Positions 1,732 through 34,911 are shown, counted from the stretch's first letter. The stretch: 64,000 bases of DNA from a virus (IMGVR_UViG_3300033121_002338:1-64000); one strand, 5' to 3'. Notes: a model not told the origin generated them from the sequence alone. Translations and numbers: made by a program.

Positions 1732-1838
1732 TGGAATTCGTGGTCCTGAACCTCGCGGTGCTCCGGACCGGGGCGAGCTTCTCGGCCGAAGAGGTCCTGG
1801 CCGCGGGCGGCGTGGTTGCTGCTGCCACGGCGGTCTAA
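1732..1838 (+). pseudogene. orphan copy of the last 35 codons of the tail sheath gene
   Basis: (V)EFVVLNLAVLRTGASFSAEEVLAAGGVVAAATAV* versus the sheath end VEFVVLNLAVLRTGASFSAEEVLAAAGIVSASTSV*: same length, many synonymous changes. Confidence 0.9.
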
Positions 1839-1857
1839 CAGTAACTAGTCACATCGG

Positions 1858-1890
1858 GCGAGGGCCGGACATCCGGCCCTCGCTCTGTTT
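1858..1890 (+). terminator. probable intrinsic terminator
   Basis: 12-bp stem gcgagggccgga-ca-tccggccctcgc followed by tctgtttt, just after the orphan sheath stop. Confidence 0.6.
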
Positions 1891-1916
1891 TCAGAGGTGC
1901 TGGCCATAAATATAAT

Positions 1917-5516: not shown

Positions 5517-5520
5517 TACC

Positions 5521-6939: not shown

Positions 6940-6959
6940 GCGGGCAGCGGTCTGGGAAA

Positions 6960-7051
6960 AGACGGAAGCACCGGTGGTGTTCGAGAGCATCGGGCGGGGA
7001 ACAGGTGCGTTCTCCCAGGCTGAGCTTCTGGTCCTCCAGAGTGCCAGCCGG
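6960..7051 (+). pseudogene. orphan fragment of the tail tube gene (codons ~25-55) with a 1-nt deletion
   Basis: RRKHRW/VFESIGRGTGAFSQAELLVLQSASR versus tube RRKHRWVFESIGRGTGAFSQSELLFLQSASR, with synonymous divergence. Confidence 0.85.
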
Positions 7052-7174
7052 CTGTGCGTTATTCATGGAAACCCAATACTACAATTATGGTTGCTCGGTT
7101 CAATATATTTTGTCCCATTCCTCAAGGAGAAGGAAATGTCCGCTCAACCAGCGAACACCGACATCAAGGTCTAG
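7052..7174. repeat. duplicate of the divergent-start region 9083-9206 (nuclease start MNNAQ on minus, target gene start MSAQPANTDIK on plus)
   Basis: 7122-7168 is identical to 9154-9200 over 47 bp, and the upstream parts are similar. This copy ends in a stop codon at 7172-7174. Confidence 0.9.
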
Positions 7175-7203
7175 CAGAATAGCGCGGGACGAAGTTGCCG
7201 GCA

Positions 7204-7620: not shown

Positions 7621-7636
7621 AATCCCTCCCGCCCTG

Positions 7637-9097
7637 TCATAGGTCGATCACAAATCTCGTCTTCGTACCCCCATCGCATCTAGTATAACCATGCTTGGCG
7701 GCATAATCCACTTCACTCATCCCCATTTTCTTAGACTGGTTCCACAGAGTCTTCTTATGCATAATGAACCCATCGCGATCTCTGTAGAAGTAATCGGCCC
7801 TGATCACTCCATCTAATCTCCAGTTGCTCGCCTTGTAAATCGTCCCGGCGTGCCCGTAGGTGCTGTCGGCGAAAGTCATCAATTTCTTGACCGGCAGAAA
7901 CTGGTAGGTCCTGGCCAGGAACCAGGACACCAGATTATGCTTGCGGTAACAGGGATGCACCGCGAGTCTAGTCAATTCCATGATCTCTCGATACTTCACC
8001 CCCTGCTTCTTCGCTGATTCCACCCTGGTTGGGTAACAGTATCTGGCCACCCCGACGATCGTATCGCCGTCCATCGCCGCCACACTGATACCACTCCTGC
8101 CCCCTGAGGCGGTGTGGTGGTATTTGCTGAGGAATAGATTGGCTTTGCTGGCCTCGATCGTCTTGATCTCAAGCTGCGAGAATTTGTAGTCAACAGCTTG
8201 GGGTTGGCGGCCGAACCAGCCGGCGACCAGATGGTGGATACGTTCTGGCGATAGGAATTCGTGCTCCCAGAGTACCTTCAATTCATACTTGTCGGAGTGG
8301 TACCGCTCGATAAAGGTGGCCTTGGCCTGGTCCCTTGAGCGTTGGTTCTCGAATCTCTCGCCGTGCCAGTATTCACCGTGGACCTCGACGAGAATATCAC
8401 GCGGGGTGTGTGGGATGTGGAAGTCGAAAGGCCAGTGGCCGACGGTATGCTGGCGATCGTAGCCGATCCCCAAATTGTCAAGTATAGCTGCCAGATTCTC
8501 CTCTAGCTTGCTCTTGCTGTTCAGCAGGACCGCCTTCGAGTATTCCGGGCGGCTCCAGGCGGCTCTAACCCCGGTGCTGATCTTGAGCTTGGTGCCCGGC
8601 GAGCGGAGTTTCTCGACCAATTTGGCCCGGTACTGCTGGTCTGCCCAATTCTTCTTCGCGGCTGCTACTAATTTGCCCCGGTAGCCATCCCGGACGGCAT
8701 CTAGATTCTGCAGACGTTTGATCTCGTTCGACCGCATGGCGGCGACCGCCTGGGCGCGATAGGTGTTGTCGGTGTGGGCCGCCGTCACTCCGGCTACGAT
8801 CTTGGACCGATATTCATCGGATTGCCAGCGTTCGGCCGTGAGGCGCTGCTGAGTCTGGGCTTGTTTCTGGGCGTATTCGGGCCGCTCCCAGACCGACTTC
8901 TGCTTGCAACTGCGGCAGACGGGGTTGAATGGTTTGCCGTGGTTGATCCGGACTGAGCTGAGTTTGATGATCAATTCTGACTTGCATTCGGCGCAGCGGA
9001 CGATGACCAGGTTCTTCCCGACCGCCTGGGCCAGCCCGTAGCCGAACCTGGCCTCGGTTTCCGCCCAGTCAACCAGATGCACCTGAGCGTTATTCAT
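7637..9097 (-). CDS. Zn-finger/NUMOD3-like + Vsr/DUF559-like endonuclease + Mom-like GNAT fusion (nuclease B)
   Basis: CAEC...CRSC, W..xEYR repeats, FDF...VEVHGEYWH...RD, then FLSKYHH...ELTRLAVHP...NLVSWFLA...TFADSTYGHAGTIYKASNW. Confidence 0.8.
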   Translation of the reverse strand: MNNAQVHLVDWAETEARFGYGLAQAVGKNLVIVRCAECKSELIIKLSSVRINHGKPFNPVCRSCKQKSVWERPEYAQKQAQTQQRLTAERWQSDEYRSKIVAGVTAAHTDNTYRAQAVAAMRSNEIKRLQNLDAVRDGYRGKLVAAAKKNWADQQYRAKLVEKLRSPGTKLKISTGVRAAWSRPEYSKAVLLNSKSKLEENLAAILDNLGIGYDRQHTVGHWPFDFHIPHTPRDILVEVHGEYWHGERFENQRSRDQAKATFIERYHSDKYELKVLWEHEFLSPERIHHLVAGWFGRQPQAVDYKFSQLEIKTIEASKANLFLSKYHHTASGGRSGISVAAMDGDTIVGVARYCYPTRVESAKKQGVKYREIMELTRLAVHPCYRKHNLVSWFLARTYQFLPVKKLMTFADSTYGHAGTIYKASNWRLDGVIRADYFYRDRDGFIMHKKTLWNQSKKMGMSEVDYAAKHGYTRCDGGTKTRFVIDL

Positions 9098-9167
9098 GGA
9101 ACCCCAATACCAAAATTATGGTCTCTTCGTCCAATATATTTTGTCCAATTTCTTCAAGGAGAAGGAA

Positions 9168-9569
9168 ATGTCCGCTCAACCAGCGAACACCGACATCAAG
9201 ATCTACCGCAACGTGCGGGCGCAGCGGCAGCCGCTGTGGTTCGATAGTGTGGCTTCGCTCATCAAGCGGCTGCGTCCGCTGGTGATGGCCATCCCGGGCC
9301 ATGAGGTCCGCGTTGGTGTCATCACCCGCGACACCAGCACCAAGGATTTCAGCCCGTACATGGGTGAAGCACGCAGCAACGCCACCCGGGGTTTCCCGAT
9401 CGTGGTCGGTCTGAACAAGCAAGTGTCCTTCGCCACCGCGCAGACCCAACTGCCGGACGTGGATTTCGCGTTCCAGATCGGCAGCGATCGCTTCATCGCC
9501 AACACCACGGTCGGCCTCGACGGCGACCTGCACAGCGATGCCCGAGACCTCACCGCCGACCAACCGTAA
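9168..9569 (+). CDS. hypothetical protein (MSAQPANTDIK...), target of the duplication
   Basis: Strong RBS (aaggagaagga) before ATG 9168, and followed by a terminator. Confidence 0.75.
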   Translation: MSAQPANTDIKIYRNVRAQRQPLWFDSVASLIKRLRPLVMAIPGHEVRVGVITRDTSTKDFSPYMGEARSNATRGFPIVVGLNKQVSFATAQTQLPDVDFAFQIGSDRFIANTTVGLDGDLHSDARDLTADQP

Positions 9570-15884: not shown

Positions 15885-17747
15885 TTCTGATGCGGCCGGG
15901 TTAAAACCGGCCCCGAGCAGCTTCGCGAGTTTGTGTTTCTGGCATTTCTGTCTTGATAGTATTGTGTTGCCGCGGTAATAAAAATAGCCGGGGGCGGTGA
16001 ACCCGGCCGCGGTGAAACCAAGCTTGTCATATACACCACCTTGGGAGATGCGCAGGTCGGCGTAGGTGGTGAGTGGTGCCCCGTCGATGGCCTTGTGGAG
16101 CGCCACGAGCAGACGGCCGGCCCCGCCCCGGACAGTCAAGCCGGCCAAAGTAGCCATTCTGATGATCTCGTAACCAACGCCTTGTCGGCTGGCGGAAATG
16201 GCCATGACCGGACCGGCGTTGTTGTGCAGGGCGATGGTGGTGGCGGCTGTGCGGTGCCCGTGAAGGTGGTTGGCGGAGAAGAATCTTTCGGCGTCGGCGT
16301 TGTCCAGGCGCTTGACGCCCATGGACCGGGCGTTGAGCGGTTCCGACAGCCCGATAGCATTGTCTATCATTGAGTACACGAGGGTGGGCTTCTGCTCCAG
16401 TTCGAAGTCGAAGAACTGGAGCAGTTTAATGCCGGCCTCTTTGCAGCGTAGGGCTTTCGTCTGGTGCCGTAGTCGTTCCTGTCCAGCTTCCTGTTGATTG
16501 GATGAATGCCAGTAGAGGCCATGATATTCTATTGCTAGTTTATGGCTTGGGATATAGATATCAAGCTCAAGAGGTGGTATTGTCTGTCGATCGTTTGTGA
16601 TGTAGGTGACTTTGTCGTCCAGGAACGCACTGAGCGTGCGTTGGCCTGCTGACATGTGGCAGACTTGACAGTAACCGTTCTTGATGTGGCACTGGGGTAT
16701 CTTGTTGAGTGTGGTTCCGCAGCGTGTGCAGACAACGTCGATTCGATCCTGCCAGGTGCCAAACCTGGTGCTGTCGTAGTTGAAGACATCGCCGTGCCGT
16801 TCTATGCAGGCGGCCAGAAAGGCCGCTGTGGTTATACCGGTGGCTAGCTTGGCCCGGTATTCTGGGTTCTGCCACTGTCTCTTGGCGATCTTGGATAAGA
16901 GCCTGAGGTGTTCGTCGGTCTTGGCGGCGTTCTGTTTGGCCCGGTATTCTGGGTTCTCCCAGAGCAGCCGAGAGCTTTCTGCCAGCTTGGTTAGATATTC
17001 TGGGTTGTTGGCGTTGTGGCGGATGGCGGCGACCATCTGTGCCCGGTATTGTGGGTCGAGCCAGCGTTGTCGGATGGCGTCCGGGTCGGCGTTATCTTTG
17101 TTGCCTTGGATCACTAAATTGCGATAATCGTCGTCCTGCCACAGGATGGCCATGGCATCGCTGATTTTCTGGCGGTAGGCTGGGTTGCTCCAGTTGGTTT
17201 GTGCGGCTGCGGAGCGTTTGGCTTTGGTGGTGGGGCGTTGGGCGGCGGTTCGGATGCCTGCTGTGATTTTGTCGCGGTTTAAACGCCAGTTCTCTTTGGC
17301 CGATGCTGATAGTTCGGCTTTGCGGTTTTCTTGGACCGCTTTCATGGTCAGGCTGTGTTTTTGTCTCTTGGTCTGGTCTGCCCAGGTTGACTGGGCTCTT
17401 GCCGAGATGGCTGCTGATTGGAGTAGGAGTGATTCTGAGTTTGTTCGCCAGGTGATGTCGTGTCGTTTTATCCATTGCCGGATTGTGAAGCTAGATACCT
17501 TTGCTATCTTGGCCATTTGGCGGTGGCTGTGTCCTTGTTGCAAACAATAAAGTAACCACTCTTTTGATTGGTGGTTGACTGGAGGCGAGACGTGCTGATC
17601 CACTTGTTGCCGTTGGCGGTCGATGGTGCTGCCGACTTGGCCAGCGGTGACATCTATTTGTCCCGCAAGCTCCTTGCCGATCCGGCCCGTTTGCGAGATT
17701 GTCTCGCCCACGAGATCGCTCACTTGATCGTTGGTCATGGAGATCAC
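15798..17747 (-). CDS. Hef-like homing endonuclease (NUMOD3-like repeats + Vsr/DUF559-like + GNAT/Mom-related C-terminus)
   Basis: HTH, many W.NPEYR repeats, HGDVFNY...CTRC, ELDIYIP...IEYHGLYWHS, then FFSANHLHG...YADLRISQGGVYDKLGF. The start codon is uncertain. Confidence 0.8.
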   Translation of the reverse strand: MISMTNDQVSDLVGETISQTGRIGKELAGQIDVTAGQVGSTIDRQRQQVDQHVSPPVNHQSKEWLLYCLQQGHSHRQMAKIAKVSSFTIRQWIKRHDITWRTNSESLLLQSAAISARAQSTWADQTKRQKHSLTMKAVQENRKAELSASAKENWRLNRDKITAGIRTAAQRPTTKAKRSAAAQTNWSNPAYRQKISDAMAILWQDDDYRNLVIQGNKDNADPDAIRQRWLDPQYRAQMVAAIRHNANNPEYLTKLAESSRLLWENPEYRAKQNAAKTDEHLRLLSKIAKRQWQNPEYRAKLATGITTAAFLAACIERHGDVFNYDSTRFGTWQDRIDVVCTRCGTTLNKIPQCHIKNGYCQVCHMSAGQRTLSAFLDDKVTYITNDRQTIPPLELDIYIPSHKLAIEYHGLYWHSSNQQEAGQERLRHQTKALRCKEAGIKLLQFFDFELEQKPTLVYSMIDNAIGLSEPLNARSMGVKRLDNADAERFFSANHLHGHRTAATTIALHNNAGPVMAISASRQGVGYEIIRMATLAGLTVRGGAGRLLVALHKAIDGAPLTTYADLRISQGGVYDKLGFTAAGFTAPGYFYYRGNTILSRQKCQKHKLAKLLGAGFNPAASESANMFANGFRRVWDAGHLRFSRERSVLN

Positions 17748-18353
17748 AACCGCGAGTGGTGTGAGGTGGTTGAGGATCTGGGTGGTCGTGTCCCATCTTT
17801 GTTCTTAAATACTGGCGACCTCCCAATTTGCTTGAATGTAGGTAACATTAGTGGAATCCAGAATATCCTACTAGATTACCACTTATTGGCCGCATACAGG
17901 AAGTTCAGTCAGAAGATCCTGGGGACCGAGGGGCACTGGGAGGTTATTAACGAAGGTGAATCGACGGTCGATGGCGACTCGTTGAGCGCCAAGGATCAGT
18001 TGATCCGTCTTTATCCGACTCCGAAGGGGGCTTTCCCGGTCACGGTTTTGTACCTGCCGGTGGTCACTCATTTCAGGAGTCCGCAGGCCAGACAATTGGC
18101 CTATGATCTGATGGTGGCTGAGGCCAGGATCATGATTGGTTCGTCGCGGCGGAAGATCTCGGGTATGCCGACCCCCGATGGTGGCAGCATTAGCTACGAT
18201 GGGGCCGATATGGTTCAGGAGGGGGAACAGGCCCGGGAGAAGATTTTGGAGCAGGCGATAAATCTTGGGGAACCGCTGTCGTTCTGGCTCTGGAACCTTC
18301 TGGTGCCTTTGATGGGGATTCTGGCTGTTGGCCTTAAAGACACTGTATGCTAG
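17568..18353 (+). CDS. SprT-like HExxH segment fused in frame to the C-terminal part of the gp13-like neck protein
   Basis: CLAHEIAHLIVGHGDHNREW...LGG, then NVGNISGIQNILLDYHLL...IRLYPTP...PDGGSISYDG..MVQEG. Same reading frame as 15090..15884. Confidence 0.65.
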   Translation: MVVDWRRDVLIHLLPLAVDGAADLASGDIYLSRKLLADPARLRDCLAHEIAHLIVGHGDHNREWCEVVEDLGGRVPSLFLNTGDLPICLNVGNISGIQNILLDYHLLAAYRKFSQKILGTEGHWEVINEGESTVDGDSLSAKDQLIRLYPTPKGAFPVTVLYLPVVTHFRSPQARQLAYDLMVAEARIMIGSSRRKISGMPTPDGGSISYDGADMVQEGEQAREKILEQAINLGEPLSFWLWNLLVPLMGILAVGLKDTVC

Positions 18354-18955: not shown

Positions 18956-19191
18956 ATTTCGGAGTTGATTACAACGACAGCCCGAAGATTGTTAAACACG
19001 GGATCTGCTGCCGTTGTGAACGACCCTCTGAGAATTCCCCGATCGGAACCGGTAGGGTCCCGACTGGCCCCGGTGGGGCCTTAGAGAGTATCAAGAACAT
19101 TGTCCTCTGCCTCGACTGCGTTGCCCTGATGGCCGAAATCCCAAAGAAATTCTGGCATGAAGGTTGGCCTAATCAGAACAAGAAGAAATGA
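18952..19191 (+). CDS. small Cys-rich (Zn-binding) hypothetical protein
   Basis: ATGA overlap with the upstream gene; CCRC...CLDC. Confidence 0.6.
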   Translation: MNFGVDYNDSPKIVKHGICCRCERPSENSPIGTGRVPTGPGGALESIKNIVLCLDCVALMAEIPKKFWHEGWPNQNKKK

Positions 19192-19207
19192 GCTTGTTGA
19201 TTTCCTG
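19165..19207. repeat. 43-bp direct repeat, copy 1
   Basis: tggcctaatcagaacaagaagaaatgagcttgttgatttcctg, identical to 22151-22193. Confidence 0.95.
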
Positions 19208-19381
19208 GCCCCAATCAATGTCCATACTAAAGCACCCATGGTTTTCGCACCAGAAAACCTGGGTGGATTTCAACTCTTTTGGCGAACAGTGCCCCTTGTC
19301 GTGCCGGCTTTCTGTCCCGCACTTCGGGCAACGGGCGGACACGTGCAGATGGCGGAAACGAACGTAATCGATCTTAACCAT
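19169..19381 (-). CDS. small Zn-ribbon hypothetical protein
   Basis: CPKC...CENH; ends GQEINKLISSCSD. Confidence 0.55.
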   Translation of the reverse strand: MVKIDYVRFRHLHVSARCPKCGTESRHDKGHCSPKELKSTQVFWCENHGCFSMDIDWGQEINKLISSCSD

Positions 19382-22150: not shown

Positions 22151-22193
22151 TGGCCTAATCAGAACAAGAAGAAATGAGCTTGTTGATTTCCTG
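22151..22193. repeat. 43-bp direct repeat, copy 2
   Basis: Identical to 19165-19207. Confidence 0.95.
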
Positions 22194-22364
22194 CCCCGAG
22201 TCCCAGAATTTCCTGTAACCGTGATTGAATAGGTTCTGGGCCTCGGTTGATTTCGGGTCGAACGACGACAGGAAATTAACCAATTTGTGTTTCTGGCTTG
22301 TCTTGTACAGCTCAACGAAACCCAACTTCTTATGGCCGGCTTGCGGCATTCGAAGCACGACCAC
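22155..22364 (-). CDS. small hypothetical protein sharing its C-terminus with 19169..19381
   Basis: Ends GQEINKLISSCSD. Confidence 0.4.
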   Translation of the reverse strand: MVVLRMPQAGHKKLGFVELYKTSQKHKLVNFLSSFDPKSTEAQNLFNHGYRKFWDSGQEINKLISSCSD

Positions 22365-22575: not shown

Positions 22576-25422
22576 ATGGCAGTTTTCCTTTCGCCCGGAG
22601 TCTTCCCCCGGGAAATCGACCTAAGCATTCTCCCGACCGCTGTTGGCCCGCTGCGGCCCGCGTTCATCGGTACCGCCCAGAAGGGTCCGCTGAACGAAGC
22701 TGTCTTCATCAGCACCTCCCAACAGGCTCTCGACACCTTTGGTGAGCCATTCCCAGAATCCTACCTGATGTACGCGGTGCTCAGTTACCTCGAAGAGGGG
22801 AACGAGTGCTACGTGATGCGGGTCGGCGTCGAATGCCAAGAAGGGCAACCCGACGAATTATCCTCAATCTGCATCGACACCAGCGGCGCCCGCGGCACCG
22901 GTTGGGGTCGCATCCCGCTGTTCACTGGGATTGACTACGGTCGGCTGAACCTGCGGGTGGTTAGCACCGACGCCCCGCTCGCCTTTCATGCCGCCAGCGT
23001 CAGCGATATCGACTACCAGGACGTGGTGGTGAGCACCACCGATGGTGCGACTAGCGCCACCCTGAACATCGTCGGCACCTACACCGGCGACATCGACGAC
23101 TCGTTCGTCATGGTGATCACTGGGGCTCCAACCGCCTCCGACGCCGCTAGCGTTGAAGGTGCCACCTTCCAAGTCATCCGCAACTCGGACGGTGAAGTGG
23201 TCGCCTCCGGGACCATGGACGATTTCGACTACAACGGCACCAGCCAGGCCATCGACCTCGAAAACGGTCTGACTGTCCAAGTCGTAGTCACCGCCGGTGT
23301 GATCGACGAGAACGACACTTTCAGCTTCAAGGTGGCTCCGGACAACCGGAAATTCACCGTTGATGTTGAGGGGGTGGCCGGCACTCAGCACACGATGCCG
23401 ACCGCCACCTACACCACCGCCGCCGACTTCGTCACCGCTTTCAACAACCTACTGTCGGGTGACGGCTACCTGATGGTGGAGTTCACCCTGGAAGACGGCG
23501 AAACCGTCATCCCCCAACTGCGGACCACGGTTGCCGGCAACCGAATCCAGCTCATGGGGACCTCAGGGTTTGCCCTGGAAGTCGGCAGCCAGCAGTATGC
23601 CTGGGATATCCCACGGTCTTACCTGCTCGGCGTGGACCCAGGCCCGTTCGATATCACCGCCCAAAACAACCGGGTCAAACTCAACCTGGTCGGGACCGAC
23701 ACCACCAAGACAATTGAATTCAACGTTCCAGTCGGGCTGGCCCAGACTGCCGATAGCCTGGCCACCTCCGTCAACGTGACCGGCGTCGTGGCCGGCGAAA
23801 CCCTGTACGAGTCGTTCGCCCTGACGGTCCCGGGCGGCTCAGAGCACGTGGTTATCGTCACCAGCCCCGACCACGAATTCGACACGCTCTCGCTCCTGGC
23901 AACCTTCTCCAACCTCAAGACCCTCCGCTTCGCCGAGGAACTTGAAATCCCCTACCCGTACCAACGGGCCTACCGGGGCTTTCGCGACAACCGGCTAGTC
24001 CTGCCGGCCTCAGGGCAGATCACCGCCGCCACCCCGCTGTCCTGCGAGACCTCACCGCTCTCCAGTGACTGCGCCTCCGACACCGCCTACTTCCAGAACG
24101 TGGTGGGCTGGCTGGTCGCCCCGTCACCGGGGACCTGGGTGGACGGCGTGACCGCCTCGCTCGAAGTCTTCGTGACCGGCACCACCCCAGCCGGCCGCTA
24201 CAAGCTGACCGTCAAGGACGCCAACCGTTCCGTCCTCGAAATCGTAGAGAACGTCAGCTTCGACAAACGGGATGACCGCTACATCGGCAACGTCGTCAAC
24301 CCCGGCACCAAGTACGGTGGCCGGAACGGCAGCGCCTACGTCCAATGGGAAGAGCGGCCAGCCTTCCTCAACAACAACGCCAGCGCCACCGACTTCGAAG
24401 TCCGCTACCCATCCCAGTTCACCGAACGGGCCTACCTCGGCCAGGCCAACGGCATCCCGACCGACCCGGCCTTCAGCTCTGAACTGGACGCCGCGGTGAT
24501 CGGCAACCCAGCCACCTCCAGTGGCCTGTACGCCTTCCAAAACCCGGAAGCGGTAGACATCAACCTGCTCTGCACCCCCGGTTTCTCAACCGGTGCGGTG
24601 ATCGGCACCGCACTCCAGATGTGTGAATCCCGCGGCGACGTCCTCTACCTGGTGGACCCGCCGTTCGGCCTGCGGCCACAACAGGCAGTGGACTGGCACA
24701 ACGGCATGCTGCTCTCCGACCTGCGGGCAGCCATCAACTCAAGCTACGGTGCCCTCTACTGGGGCTGGGTGCGGATCTTCGACCAGTTCAGCAACGACGA
24801 AATTTGGGTCCCGCCCTCCGGCCACGTGACCGCCGTCTTTAGCCGGACCGCACGGGATGCCGAGTCCTGGTTCGCCCCGGCTGGCCTCAAGCGTGGCCGG
24901 CTTCTGACCGCGCTGGACGTCGAATACTCGCCGACCCAGGGCGAGCGCGATCTGCTCTACGGTTCTGGGAACGCCGTCAACCCGATCGTCAAGTTCCCGC
25001 AAGACGGGATCGTGATCTGGGGGCAGCGGACCTTACAGCGGACCCAGTCGGCCCTGGACCGCGTCAGCGTCCGGATGCTGATGATTCACATTAAGAAGAA
25101 CTTGGTCCGCCTACTGCGGAACTTCATCTTCGAACCGAACGACAAGATCCTGTGGAAGCAGGTCATCGCCACTATCGACCCCTTCCTGGCTGATATCCAA
25201 GCTCGGCGAGGCCTCCAAGCCTACCGGGTGATTGTTGATGAGACCAACAACACTCCGGAGAGAATCGATCGAAACGAACTGTGGATCTCAGTCTTCCTGA
25301 AGCCCACGCGGACGGTCGAATTCGTGGTGCTGAACCTGGCCGTGCTGCGGACCGGGGCCAGCTTCTCGGCCGAGGAGGTCCTGGCTGCCGCAGGGATCGT
25401 TTCGGCTTCAACTTCAGTGTAA
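22576..25422 (+). CDS. contractile tail sheath protein (T4 gp18-like)
   Basis: FLSPGVFPREID...AFIGTAQKGP; NSSYGALYWGW...WVPPSG...WFAPAGLKRG...RDLLY...VNPIV...WGQRTLQ...ALDRVSVR; 948 aa. Confidence 0.95.
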   Translation: MAVFLSPGVFPREIDLSILPTAVGPLRPAFIGTAQKGPLNEAVFISTSQQALDTFGEPFPESYLMYAVLSYLEEGNECYVMRVGVECQEGQPDELSSICIDTSGARGTGWGRIPLFTGIDYGRLNLRVVSTDAPLAFHAASVSDIDYQDVVVSTTDGATSATLNIVGTYTGDIDDSFVMVITGAPTASDAASVEGATFQVIRNSDGEVVASGTMDDFDYNGTSQAIDLENGLTVQVVVTAGVIDENDTFSFKVAPDNRKFTVDVEGVAGTQHTMPTATYTTAADFVTAFNNLLSGDGYLMVEFTLEDGETVIPQLRTTVAGNRIQLMGTSGFALEVGSQQYAWDIPRSYLLGVDPGPFDITAQNNRVKLNLVGTDTTKTIEFNVPVGLAQTADSLATSVNVTGVVAGETLYESFALTVPGGSEHVVIVTSPDHEFDTLSLLATFSNLKTLRFAEELEIPYPYQRAYRGFRDNRLVLPASGQITAATPLSCETSPLSSDCASDTAYFQNVVGWLVAPSPGTWVDGVTASLEVFVTGTTPAGRYKLTVKDANRSVLEIVENVSFDKRDDRYIGNVVNPGTKYGGRNGSAYVQWEERPAFLNNNASATDFEVRYPSQFTERAYLGQANGIPTDPAFSSELDAAVIGNPATSSGLYAFQNPEAVDINLLCTPGFSTGAVIGTALQMCESRGDVLYLVDPPFGLRPQQAVDWHNGMLLSDLRAAINSSYGALYWGWVRIFDQFSNDEIWVPPSGHVTAVFSRTARDAESWFAPAGLKRGRLLTALDVEYSPTQGERDLLYGSGNAVNPIVKFPQDGIVIWGQRTLQRTQSALDRVSVRMLMIHIKKNLVRLLRNFIFEPNDKILWKQVIATIDPFLADIQARRGLQAYRVIVDETNNTPERIDRNELWISVFLKPTRTVEFVVLNLAVLRTGASFSAEEVLAAAGIVSASTSV

Positions 25423-25487: not shown

Positions 25488-27125
25488 GTGGATGTCAATG
25501 AGATGATCAACTGGCAGAAGACGGAAATCAAGTATGGAATTACCAACAATTCAGCCCGTTCCAAGTCCAAAGTCGTCGTCGAATGCGACGAATGTGGGGT
25601 TGAAGCCGATAGGATATACTGTTCGGTTAAACAGACACTTAAACGCACTGCTGGTCGGCTCTTCTGTCATAACTGTGCTACTAAAAGCCAACAATTTAAG
25701 GACGGTTGTGCGACACGGGCCGCCAAGAAATGGCAGGATCAGGAATATATTGCCAATAATTTGAGCGCAGTCCGATCCCCTGAGTATCGTGAACAGAAGC
25801 GGTCAGAATCGGCTGAACGTTGGTCGGATGCTGACTTTCGGGCCAAGATGACCACACACGAGATGATTGAGGCCAGACGCAGAAATAGCAGCATCGCGGC
25901 TAAGAACCTCTGGGCGCAACCTGAATACCGAGCTAAGTTGATTGGTAAGCTACGCGAGAGGATGATCGAGACCTGGCAGCGTCAGGACTATCGTACCCAC
26001 ATGTCGGCCATTCAATCTGGCAACACTAAATCGTTGTGGGAAGATGGCGCTTTCGCTGACTGTTTCGACGACGCCTTTAAGGAGAAAATGGCGGCCATCA
26101 ACAGGGAGATTCTTTCTCGACCCGAAGTGCTGGAGAAGTTGACTGAGGCTGGCAGAGCGAATTGGGAAAACGATGAGTATCGCCAGGCGGTGATCGCAGG
26201 AAATAAGGCGAGATGGCAGAATGAAGAACACCGCGAGCTTATGGCACAGATTAGATCCGGTCAACCACGTCAAAGCACACAACAGCAGTTATTGTATCAA
26301 TTTCTGGGGGATCTAGGTGTCACTTATTACCGTGAAGGCCAAGAGACTAAGATTGGCTACTTTGTCTTCGACTGCCTGGTGGAACATCAGGGACTGAAGA
26401 TCCTGATCGAGTGTCAGGGTGATTACTGGCATTCCTTACCAGGTTCAGCCAGCCGTGACAAAGCCAAGTTCACCTACGTTGACCGATACTTCCCAGAGTA
26501 CGAGGTCATGTACATCTGGGAACATGAATTCTATACCAAGGACCGGGTCCTAGACAGATTGAAATTGAGACTCGGCTTGTCGGTCGAAACTGTTGATTTC
26601 CGTTTCCAAGACATCCAAATTAAAGAGGTCTCGGCGGGTGAGGTGAAGTCGTTCCTGGACGCCTACCACTACATCGGTAAAGGTAGAGGTGGTAAGACCT
26701 ATGGGGCTTACCTGGGAGATCTGCTGGTAGCCTGTGTCGTGTTCAGCCCGCCACTCCGGCAGAACATGGGGGCGTTCGGCGAATTCAGAGAGTTATCTAG
26801 ATGCTGTATTCACCCGTCTTACCACCGCAAGAACTTCGCTAGCTGGTTTATCAGCCGGTCGTTGCGGCTGGTCGGCGGGAAGGTGGTGGCCTATGCGGAT
26901 AGTACGGTTGGTCACACTGGGGCCATCTATAAGGCCTCGAACTTCAAACTTCATCATGAGGTGGACCCGGATTATTGGTATGTGGATGGCGATGGTTTTG
27001 TGATGCATAAGCGGACGCTATATGGCCGTGCGGTCAAGATGGGGATGGCCGAGTCGGAGTTTGTTGCCGCTTACGGGTACGTCAAAAAGTTCGGCGGCCC
27101 TAAGAGATGTTTTGTGTATGGCTGA
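25488..27125 (+). CDS. Zn-finger/NUMOD3-like + Vsr/DUF559-like endonuclease + Mom-like GNAT fusion
   Basis: CDEC...CHNC; FVFDCLV...IECQGDYWH...RDKAK; FLDAYHYIG...ELSRCCIHP...NFASWFIS...AYADSTVGHTGAIYKASNF. Confidence 0.85.
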   Translation: MDVNEMINWQKTEIKYGITNNSARSKSKVVVECDECGVEADRIYCSVKQTLKRTAGRLFCHNCATKSQQFKDGCATRAAKKWQDQEYIANNLSAVRSPEYREQKRSESAERWSDADFRAKMTTHEMIEARRRNSSIAAKNLWAQPEYRAKLIGKLRERMIETWQRQDYRTHMSAIQSGNTKSLWEDGAFADCFDDAFKEKMAAINREILSRPEVLEKLTEAGRANWENDEYRQAVIAGNKARWQNEEHRELMAQIRSGQPRQSTQQQLLYQFLGDLGVTYYREGQETKIGYFVFDCLVEHQGLKILIECQGDYWHSLPGSASRDKAKFTYVDRYFPEYEVMYIWEHEFYTKDRVLDRLKLRLGLSVETVDFRFQDIQIKEVSAGEVKSFLDAYHYIGKGRGGKTYGAYLGDLLVACVVFSPPLRQNMGAFGEFRELSRCCIHPSYHRKNFASWFISRSLRLVGGKVVAYADSTVGHTGAIYKASNFKLHHEVDPDYWYVDGDGFVMHKRTLYGRAVKMGMAESEFVAAYGYVKKFGGPKRCFVYG

Positions 27126-29872: not shown

Positions 29873-31408
29873 TCATTTTCCATGGTAGAGGAAACACAGT
29901 TTTGGTCCTCCCCATTTCTTGATGTACCCATACTCGGCCGCGAATTCTGACTCGGTGAGTTTTAGATTCACGGCCCGGTTGTATAGGGTTTTCTTGTGCA
30001 TAACGTAGCCATCCTTGTCCGCATACCAATAATCGGACTGGGTGGTGTGGTGTAGCTTGAAATTGGAGGCCTTATAGACCGTCCCCAGATGTCCGACGGT
30101 GGTGTCGGCGAAAGCGACGACGACTTGATGGTCCTTTACTAATCTAGCTAGCCACCAACTGAGCAGATTCTTTTTGTGGTAATTCGGATGGACGCACAGT
30201 CTGGCTAATTCGACGGCTCCGTTTGGAAATTGGTGCGCCATATTCTGCCGCGGCAACGGCCCGAAACGGCTAACCGCGATTAGTGTATCGCCGAGCCATA
30301 GACCATAATCGGAGCCCCCACGCGAAGCTCCCAGATAGTGATACTTGGTTAGGAATTCGTTTGATAGATTGCGGTCTATCCGGGCGTGTTGCAACTGGCC
30401 GAATTGATAATCAACCGTGTCCGGCTTGATGCCTAACTTGGTCTTCAGACGATCCAGAACGCGATCTTTGGCTGAGAATTCGTGTTCCCAGATATACATG
30501 ATCTCGTATTCCGGGAAGTAGCGGTTTATGTAGGTGAATTTCGCCCGATCATTCCTTATGGTTTTGGGTAGTGAATGCCAATAATCGCCCTGGCATTCGA
30601 TCAGCAACGATCGCCCGTGTGCAGTAGCAATTTTACAATCGAAGACATAAAATCCGACGGTTGTGTCTGGGCCTTCTCGAACGTAATTGACTCCTAGGTT
30701 GTCGAGATATTCGTAAAGTGATACTTGTAGACTGCTGATGCGTGGTTGCTTGCTCCTCCCAACCGCCCATTTTGCCCTCTGGGCTTCGTCTGCCCACAAC
30801 TCAGTCATTGTCCGCGATATGGCAATCTTAATCCGTTCTCTGTAGTCGGCATCTTGCCAGCGCCGGTTATTCTCGACACCGACTGCAACTCGTCGTTCTG
30901 CAGTGAATGAGTCTTTGATGGACTCGGACACCAATTTCTGGTATTCTTCTCTGTCCCATAATTCAGATGACAGTTTGGCCCGATTTTCCCTGGCCTGTGG
31001 GTCAGCCCAGAATTTCAAGAGTCGTTCGACAATCTCTTTGCGGTTATCCAAACACCAATCACGTAGCTTGCCGACCATCGCTTCACGGTATGCGCCGCCA
31101 GCCCATCTCTCTCGCATTATGATTGAATGGGCCGCTCTGCGTTCTGGGGTCCATGCCTTTGTGATCCCACTGCTTACAGCAGCGGCGTACTCTTGGTCTT
31201 GCCACAATCGGCGTGAGTCGGCTGAGAGATCTCTGGTGGAGGAACGGTCGTAGCTTCCCCTCGCTCCGGCTTCTTTTCTGCTGCATCCCCCACATTTGAA
31301 GATGCCGTGGTTCCGTTTACGGTTGGCGTTGGCACTGTAGGAACGAATCTTGATTGGAGTTTGACAGAGGTCACAGCCGATGATGACGAATGGCCCGTTG
31401 TGTGACAT
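29873..31408 (-). CDS. Zn-finger/NUMOD3-like + Vsr/DUF559-like endonuclease + Mom-like GNAT fusion
   Basis: CDLC...CGGC; YVFDCKI...IECQGDYWH...NDRAK; FLTKYHYLG...ELARLCVHP...NLLSWWLA...AFADTTVGHLGTVYKASNF. Confidence 0.85.
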   Translation of the reverse strand: MSHNGPFVIIGCDLCQTPIKIRSYSANANRKRNHGIFKCGGCSRKEAGARGSYDRSSTRDLSADSRRLWQDQEYAAAVSSGITKAWTPERRAAHSIIMRERWAGGAYREAMVGKLRDWCLDNRKEIVERLLKFWADPQARENRAKLSSELWDREEYQKLVSESIKDSFTAERRVAVGVENNRRWQDADYRERIKIAISRTMTELWADEAQRAKWAVGRSKQPRISSLQVSLYEYLDNLGVNYVREGPDTTVGFYVFDCKIATAHGRSLLIECQGDYWHSLPKTIRNDRAKFTYINRYFPEYEIMYIWEHEFSAKDRVLDRLKTKLGIKPDTVDYQFGQLQHARIDRNLSNEFLTKYHYLGASRGGSDYGLWLGDTLIAVSRFGPLPRQNMAHQFPNGAVELARLCVHPNYHKKNLLSWWLARLVKDHQVVVAFADTTVGHLGTVYKASNFKLHHTTQSDYWYADKDGYVMHKKTLYNRAVNLKLTESEFAAEYGYIKKWGGPKLCFLYHGK

Positions 31409-31473
31409 CTCTGGCTGCCCGTCAAGGAAAAACTATTGTAGGATTTTTACCCCAATACATGGCTGGAGGCTGT

Positions 31474-31548
31474 ATGCCAGGGTTCAACATCATGCCGTAT
31501 GGCGGCGGCTATTCAGCCCAAGGCCCGTCAAATACGGCTGAGACGAGG
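31474..31548 (+). pseudogene. orphan first 25 codons of the tail tube gene
   Basis: MPGFNIMPYGGGYSAQGPSNTAETR with its own RBS (ggagg). 25/25 aa identical to 33088-33162, with 14 nucleotide differences, all synonymous. Confidence 0.95.
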
Positions 31549-31652
31549 GGATCTTCCAAATTGATGTTGAAGAAAGCGAAGTTGTGCGGCTTGTCCGCCC
31601 AGTTGAGCAGCACTTGTGTGCTTCCGTTATTCATACCCCGGTATAATTTCTT

Positions 31653-33032
31653 CTAGCTCTTCTGGTGTAGGAAACACAGTTTTGGTCCTCCCCATTTCTT
31701 GATGTACCCATATTTGTCAGCGAATTCGGCCTCGGTGAGTTTCAGGTTTACAGCACGGTTATAGAGGGTCTTCTTGTGCATCACGTAGCCATCTTTATCA
31801 ACATACCAATAGTCAGACTGGGTGGTGTGGTGTAGTTTGAAATTAGCTGCCTTGTAGACAGTGCCCAGATGCCCCACTGTGGTGTCGGCGAAGGCCACAA
31901 TGCTCCTATAGCCAGACATCTTGATCGCACGCGAAACCAGCCAACTTGCGAAATTATGCTTGTGGTAGGAAGGATGGATGCATAATCTGGATAACTCGAT
32001 CGCGTCGGCTGGGAGTGCTTGATGGTTCTGCCGAATTAGTCGGCTAAAGAGCACGCACCCAATCACTTGTTGTTGGTGTCTGGCTACAATCGCTCGGCCA
32101 CCACGTGAACCACCAATATAGTGGTATTGATCCAGGAATGATCTCACTTCCTTGCTGTCAGCCTCAGCAACTTCGATCTCCTTGAACGAGAAGGTGACAG
32201 TTGGGATAGCGATGCCGAGTTTTAGTTTCAGCCTATCGAGGACACGGTCTTTGGTGCCGAATTCGTGCTCCCAGATATACATGATTTCGTGGTCTGGGAA
32301 GTATCGATTGATGTAGGTGAATTTGGCCCGGTCCCTAGCTGCAGCGCCTGGTAATGAATGCCAATAATTACCTTGGCATTCGATGAGGAGTTTTCGGTCG
32401 TTAGGGCGTTTGACTAGGCAGTCGAATACATAATGGCCGATCGCAGTTGCTGGACCTTCCCGTTCGTAACTTACTCCCAGATCGCCTAGGAATGAGTATA
32501 ACGCTATCTGCAGGCCTGAAATGCTCGGTTGGTTGGCTCTGATTACGGCCATCCGCATTCGGTATTCATCATCGGCAAAGCGTTTTCTGGCTGCCTCGCC
32601 AACAGCTAATCTATAATTCGGGTCTTCGAGGTACCGCTGGTGAAGACCAGCGGAGATTCTAGCACGCGCCTCTAGACTGAGCAAGGCCTCAGTTACTCCG
32701 GCTGAGACTCTTTTCTTGTACCCATCGTCTTTCCATAATTCGCTGGTCCTGGTCGATTGTGCTGCTCTATATTCATCGGTCGTGTTGGCGGCCGTAGATG
32801 TGGCAGTGATCTTAGCTCTGAATTCTGGCCGGCTCCACAATGCCTTGCTCTGTGCCGATCTCTTCTCTGGGGTGTGGCTAAATTTGCCAGCCTTGCCCGC
32901 CTTGATGGTGCAGCAGTGGTGGCAGGTGTAGACTCCATTGCGTTTTACGTTCGCGTTGTAAGTGTCGCCTCTGACTTCCCCCGACCATCCGCAAGCACAA
33001 TTCGCCGGCTTCTTCTGTTTGGATGGTCTCAC
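31653..33032 (-). CDS. Zn-finger/NUMOD3-like + Vsr/DUF559-like endonuclease + Mom-like GNAT fusion
   Basis: Likely GTG start at 33032; CACG...CHHC; YVFDCLV...IECQGNYWH...RDRAK; FLDQYHYIG...ELSRLCIHP...NFASWLVS...AFADTTVGHLG. Confidence 0.85.
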   Translation of the reverse strand: MRPSKQKKPANCACGWSGEVRGDTYNANVKRNGVYTCHHCCTIKAGKAGKFSHTPEKRSAQSKALWSRPEFRAKITATSTAANTTDEYRAAQSTRTSELWKDDGYKKRVSAGVTEALLSLEARARISAGLHQRYLEDPNYRLAVGEAARKRFADDEYRMRMAVIRANQPSISGLQIALYSFLGDLGVSYEREGPATAIGHYVFDCLVKRPNDRKLLIECQGNYWHSLPGAAARDRAKFTYINRYFPDHEIMYIWEHEFGTKDRVLDRLKLKLGIAIPTVTFSFKEIEVAEADSKEVRSFLDQYHYIGGSRGGRAIVARHQQQVIGCVLFSRLIRQNHQALPADAIELSRLCIHPSYHKHNFASWLVSRAIKMSGYRSIVAFADTTVGHLGTVYKAANFKLHHTTQSDYWYVDKDGYVMHKKTLYNRAVNLKLTEAEFADKYGYIKKWGGPKLCFLHQKS

Positions 33033-33087
33033 GGTGGCTCCGAGAAAATCTAATATAGTAACTTTCCAGGTCGAGCAGAGGGCGAAA

Positions 33088-33672
33088 ATGCCAGGCTTTA
33101 ATATCATGCCCTACGGCGGGGGATACTCGGCCCAAGGCCCTTCCAATACGGCTGAAACGCGCAGGAAGCATCGCTGGGTTTTCGAATCGATCGGGCGAGG
33201 TACTGGGGCCTTCTCCCAGTCAGAGTTGCTGTTCCTGCAGAGCGCCTCGCGCCCCAGCTTTAAGTTCGAGGAAGCGGACCTGCACCACAACCAAGAGGTG
33301 GCCCGGTTTGCTGGTAAGCAAGACTGGGACCCGGTCACGCTGACCTGGTATGATGTCCAGCAAGACCCCGACGTGTCCCGCGGGATTTATCACTGGATCG
33401 AGACTGTGGTTAACATGTTCTCGATTAAGGTGGCTCACCCCCGTCTTTACAAGCGGACCGCCAGCCTGTTGATGATTGACGGTGCTGGTCAGACCTCTGA
33501 ATCGTGGACCATGCTGGGGACCTGGCCCTCGAACTGTAACTGGCAGGAACTGGATTATGCTTCGAATGATATTCTTACTATCGAAGCGACCATGCGTTAT
33601 GACCGGGCGGTTCGGAACTGCGTCGGTGCTCCGGCGCCGCAACCGATCGCGCCAAACTGCCCACAAATCTAA
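33088..33672 (+). CDS. tail tube protein (T4 gp19-like)
   Basis: ETRRKHRWVF...RPSFKFEE...GKQDWDPVTLTWYD...WTMLGTWPSN..WQELDY...IEATMRYDRA. Confidence 0.85.
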   Translation: MPGFNIMPYGGGYSAQGPSNTAETRRKHRWVFESIGRGTGAFSQSELLFLQSASRPSFKFEEADLHHNQEVARFAGKQDWDPVTLTWYDVQQDPDVSRGIYHWIETVVNMFSIKVAHPRLYKRTASLLMIDGAGQTSESWTMLGTWPSNCNWQELDYASNDILTIEATMRYDRAVRNCVGAPAPQPIAPNCPQI

Positions 33673-33690
33673 GGGTTTGTAGGGTAAATC

Positions 33691-33720
33691 TAAGAGGGAG
33701 GCCAAATGGCCTCCCTCTTA
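33691..33720 (+). terminator. hairpin between tube genes 1 and 2
   Basis: 14-bp stem taagagggaggcca-aa-tggcctccctctta. Confidence 0.55.
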
Positions 33721-33744: not shown

Positions 33745-34317
33745 TTGCCAGGCTTTAATATTCAATTTGCGAGCGACTGCGGCGTGGCCCCCGAGAGCAA
33801 CGGGCCGGCCAATACCGTGGAGACGGCACGCCGCCACCGCTATTCATTAGAGGTCCTGGAGCCACTCGGCAGACAAGATAACGGCATTCTGCTGTTCCTG
33901 GAGCGTTGTACCCGTCCCGCCGTTGAATTTGATAAGATCGTTATCCATTCCGGCCAGGATGAGATTGCACGTCCCGGTAAGACCCACTGGAAAGAAATCG
34001 AATTCAGCTTTTATGAAGCTTTATCTGGTCAGGACAATGGTTCGTTGGAGAATCAATGTGCGAGCTTGATTTATGAGTGGTGGTCGAGCACCATGTTGGA
34101 TGTTTCAACTAGTACCTTCCGGGCTCCTGGTGATTTTCTCAAAAACGCACAACTACAAATGCTGGATGGTGATGGCTCTCCTGTCTGGTCTTATCACATT
34201 TATGATTGTTGGCCGCTGAAGGTGTCGCCGTCGGAGTTGGCTTACTCGGATTCTAATATTGCCACTATTTCGGTTACACTTTGTTATTCGCGCGCTCGCG
34301 AAATAAACGAGAGGTAA
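33745..34317 (+). CDS. tail tube paralogue (gp19/gp54-like)
   Basis: MPGFNI...ETARRHRY...RPGKTHWKEIEFSFY...CWPLKVSPSELAY. Confidence 0.8.
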   Translation: MPGFNIQFASDCGVAPESNGPANTVETARRHRYSLEVLEPLGRQDNGILLFLERCTRPAVEFDKIVIHSGQDEIARPGKTHWKEIEFSFYEALSGQDNGSLENQCASLIYEWWSSTMLDVSTSTFRAPGDFLKNAQLQMLDGDGSPVWSYHIYDCWPLKVSPSELAYSDSNIATISVTLCYSRAREINER

Positions 34318-34332
34318 TCAGAGGAGACGGCT

Positions 34333-34911
34333 ATGCCGGGCTTTGTTGTGCCGGGGATCGGCGGCGGCTTCTCGCGGGCGCCTAGCAGCCGGCGCGAATA
34401 CTACTATAATTATACCTGGGAGGTTGAGAATTTGTTCCAGGGTCAGAGCCCGGATGGTTGGAGTGATCCGAATAGTCCGTTGATTGCGTTGCGGGACGCG
34501 ACCTTGCCTACTTTTACGGTTAACAAGGAAGTCCATGCCGGGGCGAGCGTTGAGTACAAGTATGCGAAGAGTGTGACTTGGGACGACATCAAGATAACCT
34601 GGTACGATTCAGACGGCCTCCTGGAAGTTATGAGGAAGTGGCGTGGGAACATCTGGACTCAATCGCATGGCCTTGCTGATGCCGATCATTATAAGAGACG
34701 TTCTGAGCTTTCTTATTATCTGCCTACCGGTAAGAAACGGAATTCCTGGTTATTGAGAAATTCGTGGCCGAGTCAGATTCGTCATGGGGAATTGACGTAT
34801 ACTTCTAGCGATGTTAAATTGGTTGAGGTGACGGTGACATATGACTGGGCTATTGAACGTCCTTCGTCTGAGGACACCTCTTCGGTTGGCACGTTAACTG
34901 GCGTGATCTAG
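34333..34911 (+). CDS. tail tube paralogue (gp19/gp48/54-like)
   Basis: MPGF...TLPTFTV...VTWDDIKITWYD...SWPSQIRHGELTY...VTVTYDWA. Confidence 0.8.
   Translation: MPGFVVPGIGGGFSRAPSSRREYYYNYTWEVENLFQGQSPDGWSDPNSPLIALRDATLPTFTVNKEVHAGASVEYKYAKSVTWDDIKITWYDSDGLLEVMRKWRGNIWTQSHGLADADHYKRRSELSYYLPTGKKRNSWLLRNSWPSQIRHGELTYTSSDVKLVEVTVTYDWAIERPSSEDTSSVGTLTGVI

What the first reader, a model, noticed from the sequence alone, without database searches (positions are those of the whole stretch)
31474..33162. Gene-start replacement at the tail tube gene: 25 codons duplicated with only synonymous changes
Seen: MPGFNIMPYGGGYSAQGPSNTAETR occurs twice with 14 nucleotide differences, all silent. Each copy is head-to-head with a different Vsr-Mom nuclease, and only the right copy continues into the gene. 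Nucleases are also head-to-head with the neck gene (13-bp gap) and with the 9168 gene. Inference: the element carries a recoded, possibly cleavage-resistant, copy of the gene start and promoter. It could then invade an essential gene without splicing, and successive invasions would stack up.
Basis: partly seen in the sequence, partly recalled or inferred. Interest (0 to 1): 0.85.

Follow-up and report, generated by a model that had tools for sequence, protein, structure and literature searches.

The report
Nuclease gene insertion duplicated tube-gene start
In this jumbo phage fragment a homing-nuclease gene entered the tail tube gene at codon 25/26 and brought its own leader and first 25 codons. 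The gene still works, the old start is left as a dead end, and three related cases show this is a recurrent footprint of this nuclease family.

Summary
Window 31474-31548 and 33088-33162 encode the same 25 residues and differ at 14 of 75 bases, all silent. Chance of that for a decaying copy is about 3e-9.

Each copy sits head-to-head with a different Vsr-like/Mom nuclease gene. Only the right copy continues into the tube gene.

Of 29 related loci where both the sheath end and the tube start are visible, 23 join sheath and tube directly. None carries the duplicate.

Three new results support the reading:
- A second tube fragment (6963-7051), from a different allele, starts at codon 26. That is where the left copy ends, so breaks recur at tube bases 75-79, inside the invariant RRKHRW motif.
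- The same geometry occurs at the 9168 gene in this window and at the neck gene of a metagenome relative (L071). A mirror-image gene-end version occurs in L045.
- The silent divergence (81% identity) equals ordinary divergence between lineages (78% to the closest relative). It is not special recoding.

Best reading: two diverged alleles of one nuclease-leader-tube-start module were stacked after a nuclease cut in the sensitive allele.

Whether the stack now moves as a self-contained element is open. Gene fragments next to phage homing nucleases have been reported before, so this is a new variant of a known kind. Other first-stage notes of this scan flagged the same stretch and the 9168 case.

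The parts
29873..31408 (-). Nuclease gene A (511 aa): Zn-finger N-terminus, helical W..EYR repeats, Vsr-like nuclease core, Mom-like C-terminal domain. Head-to-head with the left (dead-end) tube start.
   Evidence: Pfam Mom PF25680 E 1.3e-18 (above threshold) and MTES_1575 REase (below threshold). 57% identical to nuclease B. Conserved D/H/D/K/E columns.
31409..31473 (.). Left head-to-head spacer: leader and GGAGG ribosome-binding site of the old tube start.
   Evidence: Weakly similar to the right spacer (p about 0.013). The shared 15-base motif AAA..TA...TAG.A occurs only at these two places in the 83-kb contig (the motif was derived from them).
31474..31548 (+). Left copy of tube codons 1-25: the old, broken allele. 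Its frame runs on for 35 unrelated codons to a stop at 31654-31656.
31549..31652 (-). 104-base filler between the left copy and the stop of nuclease B. On the minus strand 31634-31549 reads like the first 28 codons of a further nuclease gene of this family (starts MNN..., then ..LLNWADK...F).
   Evidence: No DNA or protein match elsewhere. N-terminal similarity to the 7637 nuclease, shuffle p about 0.002, uncorrected for five comparisons. Suggestive only.
31653..33032 (-). Nuclease gene B (459 aa from the GTG at 33032; frame open to the ATG at 33107). Same architecture as A. Closest relative is the tube-adjacent nuclease of L002 (55-57%).
33033..33087 (.). Right head-to-head spacer: leader and ribosome-binding site of the live tube gene.
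33088..33672 (+). Tail tube gene 1 (194 aa). Codons 1-25 (33088-33162) are the right copy.
   Evidence: Pfam PF06841 and PHROG 4542 tail tube. 93% identical to the L001 tube protein.
6963..7051 (+). Ectopic tube fragment, codons 26-55, of an L001-like allele with a 1-base deletion. It is the right end of a 5.3-kb cassette (1732-7051). Its left edge coincides with the right edge of the left copy.
1734..1838 (+). Last 34 codons plus stop of a foreign sheath allele. It is the left end of the same cassette and abuts codon 6 of a split nuclease gene (694-1731).
   Evidence: The first 24 codons differ from the resident sheath at eight bases, all silent (sequence, read by me).
7052..7175 (+). Second case in the window, old copy: first 5 codons of a nuclease gene (minus strand), head-to-head spacer, ribosome-binding site and codons 1-13 of the 9168 gene. 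Dead-ends at a stop.
   Evidence: 89% identical over 123 bases to 9083-9205, with an exact 47-base core.
7637..9097 (-). Nuclease gene (486 aa) lying between the two copies of the 9168 gene start.
   Evidence: Pfam Mom E 3.6e-19.
9083..9207 (+). Live copy of the same unit. It continues into the 9168-9569 gene.
   Evidence: The gene is conserved in relatives L009, L014 and L046.
22576..25422 (+). Tail sheath gene. In 23 of 29 relatives its stop lies 1-96 bases before the tube start. Here 7,665 bases with three nuclease genes intervene.
25488..27125 (+). Third nuclease gene of the sheath-tube interval, lying downstream of the sheath gene and in the same orientation.

Best explanation
Footprint of a homing-nuclease event that stacked two alleles of one locus.

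In this phage group a Vsr-like/Mom nuclease gene often sits head-to-head with the tube gene. Its product most likely cuts tube alleles of rival genomes between codons 25 and 26, inside the invariant RRKHRW-coding stretch.

In a mixed infection a genome carrying [nuclease A - leader - tube allele L] was broken there. The break was joined, without homology on the left side, to DNA of a genome carrying [nuclease B - leader - tube allele R].

The result is [A - leader - codons 1-25 of L, dead end] - 104-base filler - [B - leader - codons 1-25 of R - rest of tube]. The right module provides the transcription and translation signals and the first 25 codons, so the essential gene stays whole without splicing.

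The 14 silent differences are ordinary divergence of two working alleles before they met. Some of them probably make allele R immune to the cut.

Shown: the anatomy, purifying selection on both copies, absence of the duplicate from element-free relatives, the recurrent breakpoint, and recurrence of the geometry at other genes.

Inferred: that a nuclease cuts there, which nuclease does it, the direction of transfer, and the immunity of allele R.
For: - 14 of 14 differences are silent (P about 3e-9). Divergence in place as a dead copy is therefore excluded, and both copies were once live gene starts.
- Copy divergence (81% identity) matches lineage divergence: 78% to L001 over the whole gene, and 16-19 differences in the same 75 bases.
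- The two modules are homologous throughout: nucleases 57% identical, spacers weakly similar, starts 100% identical in protein.
- Of 29 relatives with both sheath end and tube start visible, 23 are empty, two have 734- and 1132-base gaps without a nuclease gene, and four have one or two nuclease genes. None has a duplicate.
- Relative to L001, the ectopic L001-like tube copy lacks exactly the stretch from 22 bases after the upstream gene's stop to codon 25. Its surviving part starts at codon 26, where the left copy ends. This is a second, independent break at bases 75-79.
- The site lies in a peptide motif kept in every relative.
- Same geometry elsewhere: 9168 gene, 13 codons; neck gene of L071, 30 codons with about 8 silent and 3 replacement changes; mirror-image gene-end duplication in L045, 50 codons. 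That is 4 of about 60 nuclease sites whose flanks I compared.
- DNA to the left of nuclease B is unrelated to DNA to the left of nuclease A. A regular two-sided homologous repair was therefore not possible.
- The nuclease cores keep the conserved acidic and His residues in all nine aligned copies, so the enzymes look active.
Against: - No cleavage data. The cut site is inferred from two breakpoints only.
- No donor-type or recipient-type genome was found. The best relative of nuclease B is 55-61% identical, and the left copy's 36-mer is absent from IMG/VR.
- The direction of the event is ambiguous. The left block could instead be the incoming piece, joined into a nuclease gene next to B.
- The nucleotide identity profile against L001 shows no co-conversion boundary inside the tube gene.
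- The contig is a metagenome assembly and the reads could not be inspected.
- Three gene-start cases with the same geometry may mean more than accident.
Confidence: 0.68

Rival explanations
1. A self-contained mobile unit. The unit is [old start as left homology arm] - nuclease gene - leader - immune start. The nuclease cuts at codon 25/26. The two ends of the break pair with the old copy and with the gene body, and everything between is copied in. Insertion site and cut site then coincide, and homing no longer depends on what lies upstream of the target gene.
For: Three gene-start cases with one geometry at three different genes, and a mirror case at a gene end. In L071 the inserted DNA starts about 10 bases beyond the nuclease stop, so the unit there is compact. 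The left copy is fully intact in leader, ribosome-binding site and all 25 codons. Barth et al. proposed that gene fragments in nuclease islands serve as recombination substrates (PMC10055350).
Against: No two genomes share the same stack. The left flank of the nuclease varies: about 10, 104 and 461 bases. Only about 4 of 60 compared nuclease sites show a flanking duplicate. The arm is 75 bases at about 80% identity to other alleles, which is poor for homologous pairing. The perfect protein identity of the left copy is explained by recency alone.
Confidence: 0.2
2. Assembly chimera: two strains, each with one nuclease next to its own tube start, were joined by the assembler.
For: The contig is a metagenome assembly estimated at 23% complete. 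The nuclease family has many paralogues. Reads could not be checked.
Against: The junction at 31548/31549 is not in any repeat. The longest exact match between the copies is 11 bases. The filler has no other copy. The same geometry is seen at a second locus and in two independently assembled contigs.
Confidence: 0.04
3. The left copy is kept for a function of its own. Examples: a 60-aa peptide sharing the tube N-terminus, a decoy target for the nuclease, or a second promoter driving transcription into the antisense nuclease gene.
For: Intact ribosome-binding site, start and 25 unchanged codons.
Against: The 35-codon tail has no homologue and no Pfam match. No relative keeps such a gene. The dead-end copies at 9168 and in L071 stop after 1-2 codons.
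Confidence: 0.03

Closest known systems
Intronless homing by free-standing endonuclease genes of T4-type phages (SegB, SegF, SegG, MobE; PMC2988022, PMC2330249, PMC2790892; details from my own knowledge of these papers)
   Same: The nuclease gene lies in the spacer next to an essential gene and is thought to cut inside that gene in genomes that lack it. Presence and absence vary among relatives. The resident allele is presumed immune through silent differences. Flanking markers travel with the nuclease gene.
   Different: In T4 the recipient's gene segment is replaced by gene conversion and no duplicate remains. Here the recipient's start survives next to the incoming one, and alleles stack. 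The nuclease family also differs: Vsr-like core with a Mom-like domain, not GIY-YIG or HNH.
HEG-islands with fragments of essential genes in ICP1-like phages (Barth, Dunham and Seed 2023, PMC10055350)
   Same: Several nuclease genes cluster around essential virion genes. Small fragments with nucleotide homology to the full-length gene lie beside them and were proposed as recombination substrates.
   Different: The section I read does not describe the exact geometry (start plus leader, head-to-head), purely silent divergence, or a shared breakpoint. The nuclease families differ (T5orf172, HNH there).
Partial C-terminal gene duplications next to homing endonuclease ORFs in fungal mitochondria (atp6 and cob in Endoconidiophora, PMC6279837; rps3 and Allomyces atp6 cases from memory)
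   Same: A nuclease gene enters a coding region and brings a replacement gene end. The displaced end remains as a vestige.
   Different: There it is the 3' end, in organelles, with LAGLIDADG or GIY-YIG enzymes. Here it is the 5' end together with leader and start signals. L045 shows the 3' version for this phage family.
Vsr-like (EDxHD) homing endonucleases and 'fractured genes' (Dassa et al. 2009, PMC2677866; I-Bth0305I, PMC3239194)
   Same: Vsr-like catalytic core, phage origin, free-standing insertion into essential genes. The neck gene of this window appears to be such a fractured gene.
   Different: Fractured genes rely on split inteins or tolerate a split protein. Here the gene stays in one piece because its start is duplicated. 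Neither of those papers mentions a Mom-like domain in the passages I searched.

Membership tests
Free-standing homing endonuclease gene with intronless homing | Nuclease gene outside any intron or intein, adjacent to a conserved target gene | tested here: met
   Two nuclease genes lie head-to-head with the tube start. Others lie next to the neck, 9168 and sheath genes.
Free-standing homing endonuclease gene with intronless homing | Sporadic presence or absence at the same locus among close relatives | tested here: met
   Of 29 loci, 23 are empty, four have one or two nuclease genes, and two have other inserts.
Free-standing homing endonuclease gene with intronless homing | Site-specific cleavage of the nuclease-free allele within or near the neighbouring gene | not testable with these tools
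   Only indirect: two independent breakpoints at tube bases 75-79.
Free-standing homing endonuclease gene with intronless homing | Co-conversion of flanking markers from donor to recipient | tested here: inconclusive
   The incoming start differs from the old one, but no mosaic boundary is visible inside the tube gene against L001. No donor was found.
Vsr-like (EDxHD) homing endonuclease family | Vsr-type catalytic core with conserved Asp, acidic residue, His and Asp | tested here: met
   Invariant D, H, D, K and E columns in nine copies; the acidic residue is E or D. PHROG 559 and 3339 match at E 1e-18 to 1e-25. The Pfam Vsr, TIGR vsr and MTES_1575 hits are below their thresholds.
Vsr-like (EDxHD) homing endonuclease family | Demonstrated endonuclease activity | not testable with these tools
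Mom family (Pfam PF25680) | Profile match above the curated threshold | tested here: met
   51-70 bits against a cutoff of 27.1 in six copies. Weak direct match to the solved Mu Mom chain 8bv8 (E 0.06).
Mom family (Pfam PF25680) | DNA adenine modification activity | not tested
   Catalytic residues of Mu Mom were not mapped. The domain could serve in binding only.
HEG-island with essential-gene fragments (Barth et al.) | Several nuclease genes bracket essential genes, with fragments homologous to the full-length gene beside them | tested here: met
   Three nuclease genes lie between sheath and tube. Fragments of tube (two), sheath (one) and the 9168 gene (one) were found.

The most novel reading that the evidence does not exclude
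Vsr-like/Mom nuclease genes have a splicing-free way of living inside essential genes. The unit [old start] - nuclease - leader - [immune start] is flanked by direct repeats of the target's first N codons, and N marks the cut site. The repeats act as homology arms, so the unit can home into any allele of the gene whatever lies upstream. Repeated rounds stack modules and inflate a 20-base spacer to several kilobases.
Probability: 0.22. Interest if true: 0.8.

Novelty: new variant of a known kind. Interest (0 to 1): 0.6.

Why it matters
It shows, at single-base resolution, how a selfish nuclease gene can enter the coding region of an essential virion gene without an intron or intein.

It yields a concrete predicted cut site: tube bases 75-79, with a sensitive and a putatively immune allele on the same molecule. 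That makes the specificity of an uncharacterised nuclease-Mom fusion family directly testable.

It also explains how the sheath-tube spacer of these jumbo phages grows from about 20 bases to 7.7 kb. Pieces of virion genes found at odd places can be read as records of past breaks.

Tried and rejected
- BLASTN of 31400-33700 against GenBank phages: no match.
- Exact 36-mer of the left copy in IMG/VR: none.
- Closer relatives of nuclease B in IMG/VR and in metagenome contigs: best 55-61%, so neither donor nor recipient state was found.
- The 104-base filler: no DNA or protein match anywhere.
- Sliding identity of the tube region against L001, looking for a co-conversion boundary: none visible.
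- The motif upstream of the tube start as a general late promoter: rejected. It occurs only at the two tube leaders in the 83-kb contig.
- Global alignment of the two spacers was not significant. A local alignment gave p about 0.013.
- My first codon table for the 6963-7051 fragment was out of register. It was replaced by the alignment.
- The D/N/S variation before YWH in the nuclease core was considered as a sign of dead enzymes. Rejected, because that column varies across the family while the other catalytic columns are invariant.
- In-place tandem duplication followed by drift: rejected on the all-silent pattern.

Full report
**1. Setting**

The window is the first 64 kb of an 83,341-base IMG/VR virus contig estimated at 23% complete. 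That implies a jumbo myovirus of roughly 350 kb.

The region holds a virion module in this order: neck genes, sheath (22576-25422), three tube paralogues (33088-33672, 33745-34317, 34333-34911), then baseplate genes.

The contig carries at least eight full copies and some broken copies of one gene family. Each protein has a variable N-terminus, helical W..EYR repeats, a Vsr-like nuclease core and a C-terminal Mom-like domain. The Mom domain (PF25680) scores above threshold, and PHROG 3339 and 559 ('homing endonuclease') match.

**2. The observation**

It is correct in every detail.
- 31474-31548 and 33088-33162 encode the same 25 residues.
- 14 of 75 bases differ, in 13 codons, and all changes are silent.
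- With about 25% of random changes silent, this has P about 3e-9.
- Coding similarity ends after codon 25, within 4 bases.
- The left copy dead-ends after 35 unrelated codons. The right copy is the start of tube gene 1.
- Each copy is head-to-head with a different nuclease gene, the spacers being 65 and 55 bases.

**3. Relatives**

Thirty-five related tube loci were fetched. In 29 both the sheath end and the tube start are visible:

| State of the sheath-tube gap | Loci |
|---|---|
| 1-96 bases, empty | 23 |
| 734 or 1132 bases, no nuclease gene | 2 |
| One or two nuclease genes | 4 (L002 one, minus strand, head-to-head with tube; L010 and L012 one each, plus strand; L018 two, plus strand) |

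The window has 7,665 bases with three nuclease genes. None of the 35 loci fetched has a second tube start. The duplicate is therefore tied to nuclease insertion and is not a family trait.

**4. Two alleles, not one decayed copy**

A dead copy drifting in place would collect replacement changes, so both copies were live gene starts when they diverged.

Their distance (14 of 75) matches that of either copy to the nearest relative L001 (16 and 19 of 75). It also matches the gene-wide identity to L001, about 78%. 'Recoding' is therefore ordinary divergence between lineages.

The two modules are homologous along their whole length:
- nucleases 57% identical in protein;
- spacers weakly similar (p about 0.013), with a shared 15-base motif found nowhere else in the contig;
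- starts identical in protein.

Two alleles of one nuclease-leader-start module are stacked in tandem.

**5. A recurrent breakpoint**

Self-comparison of the contig found a third piece of tube gene at 6963-7051, covering codons 26-55.

ORF 694-1731(-) and the five codons at 7052-7066 are one nuclease gene, split by a 5,320-base insert. The insert runs: last 34 sheath codons plus stop, five genes, then the tube fragment.

In L001 the homologues of four of those five genes (80-89% protein identity; the contig ends before the fifth) lie directly upstream of an intact tube gene. They are absent from two complete relatives.

Aligned to L001, the window's cassette lacks exactly the stretch from 22 bases after the last cassette gene's stop to tube codon 25. 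The surviving part starts at codon 26, where the left copy ends.

So two independent alleles were broken at tube bases 75-79, inside the coding stretch for RRKHRW. That motif is kept in every relative. This is the expected signature of a site-specific cut in a conserved target.

**6. The geometry recurs**

I compared the DNA on the two sides of about 60 nuclease genes (35 or more sites, 26 sites). Four sites have a flanking duplicate of a neighbouring gene end:

| Locus | What is duplicated |
|---|---|
| Window, tube gene | 25 codons |
| Window, 9168 gene | Five nuclease codons, spacer, ribosome-binding site and 13 codons; 123 bases at 89% with a 47-base exact core; the old copy dead-ends at a stop |
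| L071, neck gene | 30 codons; 84% identity; about 8 silent and 3 replacement changes; the old copy ends about 10 bases from the nuclease stop |
| L045, gene end (mirror image) | Last 50 codons of the upstream gene repeated beyond a co-oriented nuclease gene |

**7. The left join is irregular**

The 104 bases between the left copy and the stop of nuclease B match nothing. On the minus strand they resemble the first 28 codons of yet another nuclease of this family (p about 0.002, uncorrected).

The DNA to the left of nuclease A is a different gene. A two-sided homologous repair was therefore impossible, and the left joint must be an end-joining or template-switch product.

The amount of DNA between the old copy and the nuclease stop varies among the cases: about 10, 104 and 461 bases.

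**8. Mechanism proposed**

A tube-adjacent nuclease cuts sensitive tube alleles at codon 25/26. The break in an allele-L genome was joined to DNA of an allele-R genome that carried nuclease B. The right side was restored in frame, so the gene starts with R's leader and codons. The left side was joined irregularly.

The reverse direction gives the same product and cannot be excluded: a broken allele-L end captured next to nuclease B.

In either case L is the cut allele and R the uncut one. R differs from L, and from the cassette allele, at several silent positions within 15-20 bases of the break. The Arg25, Arg26, His28 and Arg29 codons are among them. This is consistent with immunity through sequence but does not prove it.

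After stacking, the two nuclease genes seem to have exchanged sequence. Their last ~210 bases are about 85% identical, 48 of the final 50, against 40-65% elsewhere.

**9. What is known**

- Intronless homing of T4 Seg and Mob nucleases has the same logic, but it replaces the recipient's segment instead of duplicating it (PMC2988022).
- Barth et al. noted fragments of essential genes in phage 'HEG-islands' and suggested they act as recombination substrates (PMC10055350).
- Fungal mitochondria show gene-end duplications next to endonuclease ORFs (PMC6279837).
- Vsr-like homing endonucleases and fractured genes were described by Dassa et al. (PMC2677866).

The present case adds four things:
- a 5'-end version that includes leader and start signals;
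- proof from silent-only divergence that two live alleles were stacked;
- a shared breakpoint;
- recurrence at three genes for a nuclease-Mom fusion family.

**10. Verdict**

It is a new variant of a known kind, of moderate to good interest. The open question is whether the stack is merely a scar or a unit that homes by using the old copy as an arm.

**Limits**
- No biochemical data.
- No donor genome was found.
- No read-level check of the assembly.

Noticed in passing
window 1732-7051: A 5.3-kb cassette splits a nuclease gene between codons 5 and 6. It runs: sheath last 34 codons, five genes with weak fibre-, decoration- and Ig-like hits, then tube codons 26-55. In L001 the same genes sit directly upstream of the tube gene. 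The cassette is absent from two complete relatives.
   Followed up: partly
window 15090-18353: The neck gene looks fractured. The N-terminal part matches relatives to residue 107, then an intein-like block follows (C-F-P-G-G-T...T-P-N-H-P). A minus-strand nuclease-like gene (15798-17747) comes next, and the C-terminal part continues in 17568-18353. L071 shows the same intein-like start.
   Followed up: partly
window 7174-7636: About seven copies of a motif (..CTGCYGG.A.AGCTAAGGA.GAGCAC) spaced 60-75 bases apart, between the old 9168 start and the stop of the 7637 nuclease gene. Function unknown.
   Followed up: no
window 19165-19211 and 22151-22197: A 47-base repeat (46 of 47 identical) holding a ribosome-binding site, an ATG and about 7 codons. 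The second copy dead-ends in the enlarged spacer before the sheath gene. No nuclease gene lies between the copies.
   Followed up: no
window 29883-29932 and 31662-31711: The two tube-adjacent nuclease genes are 48 of 50 identical at their 3' ends and about 85% identical over the last ~210 bases, against 40-65% elsewhere. This suggests gene conversion between the stacked paralogues.
   Followed up: partly
window 826-927: Two copies of a 37-38-base unit repeated at a 64-base period, inside the split nuclease gene 694-1731.
   Followed up: no
L002 8148-8573 (-): A 141-aa ORF downstream of the tube-adjacent nuclease gene carries H-A-E ... P-C-x-x-C, the zinc motif of cytidine-deaminase-like folds. 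No Pfam match.
   Followed up: partly
window 155-661 (-): A 168-aa ORF just downstream of the split nuclease gene. It has homologues between sheath and tube in L010-L012 and L023, where it lies beside the nuclease gene in L010-L012, and further homologues in L001 and L016. It may be a frequent passenger of these nuclease genes.
   Followed up: no
L048, L050, L053: In more distant relatives a nuclease gene of the same family sits between tube paralogues 1 and 2. No flanking duplicate of either gene's end was found there.
   Followed up: no
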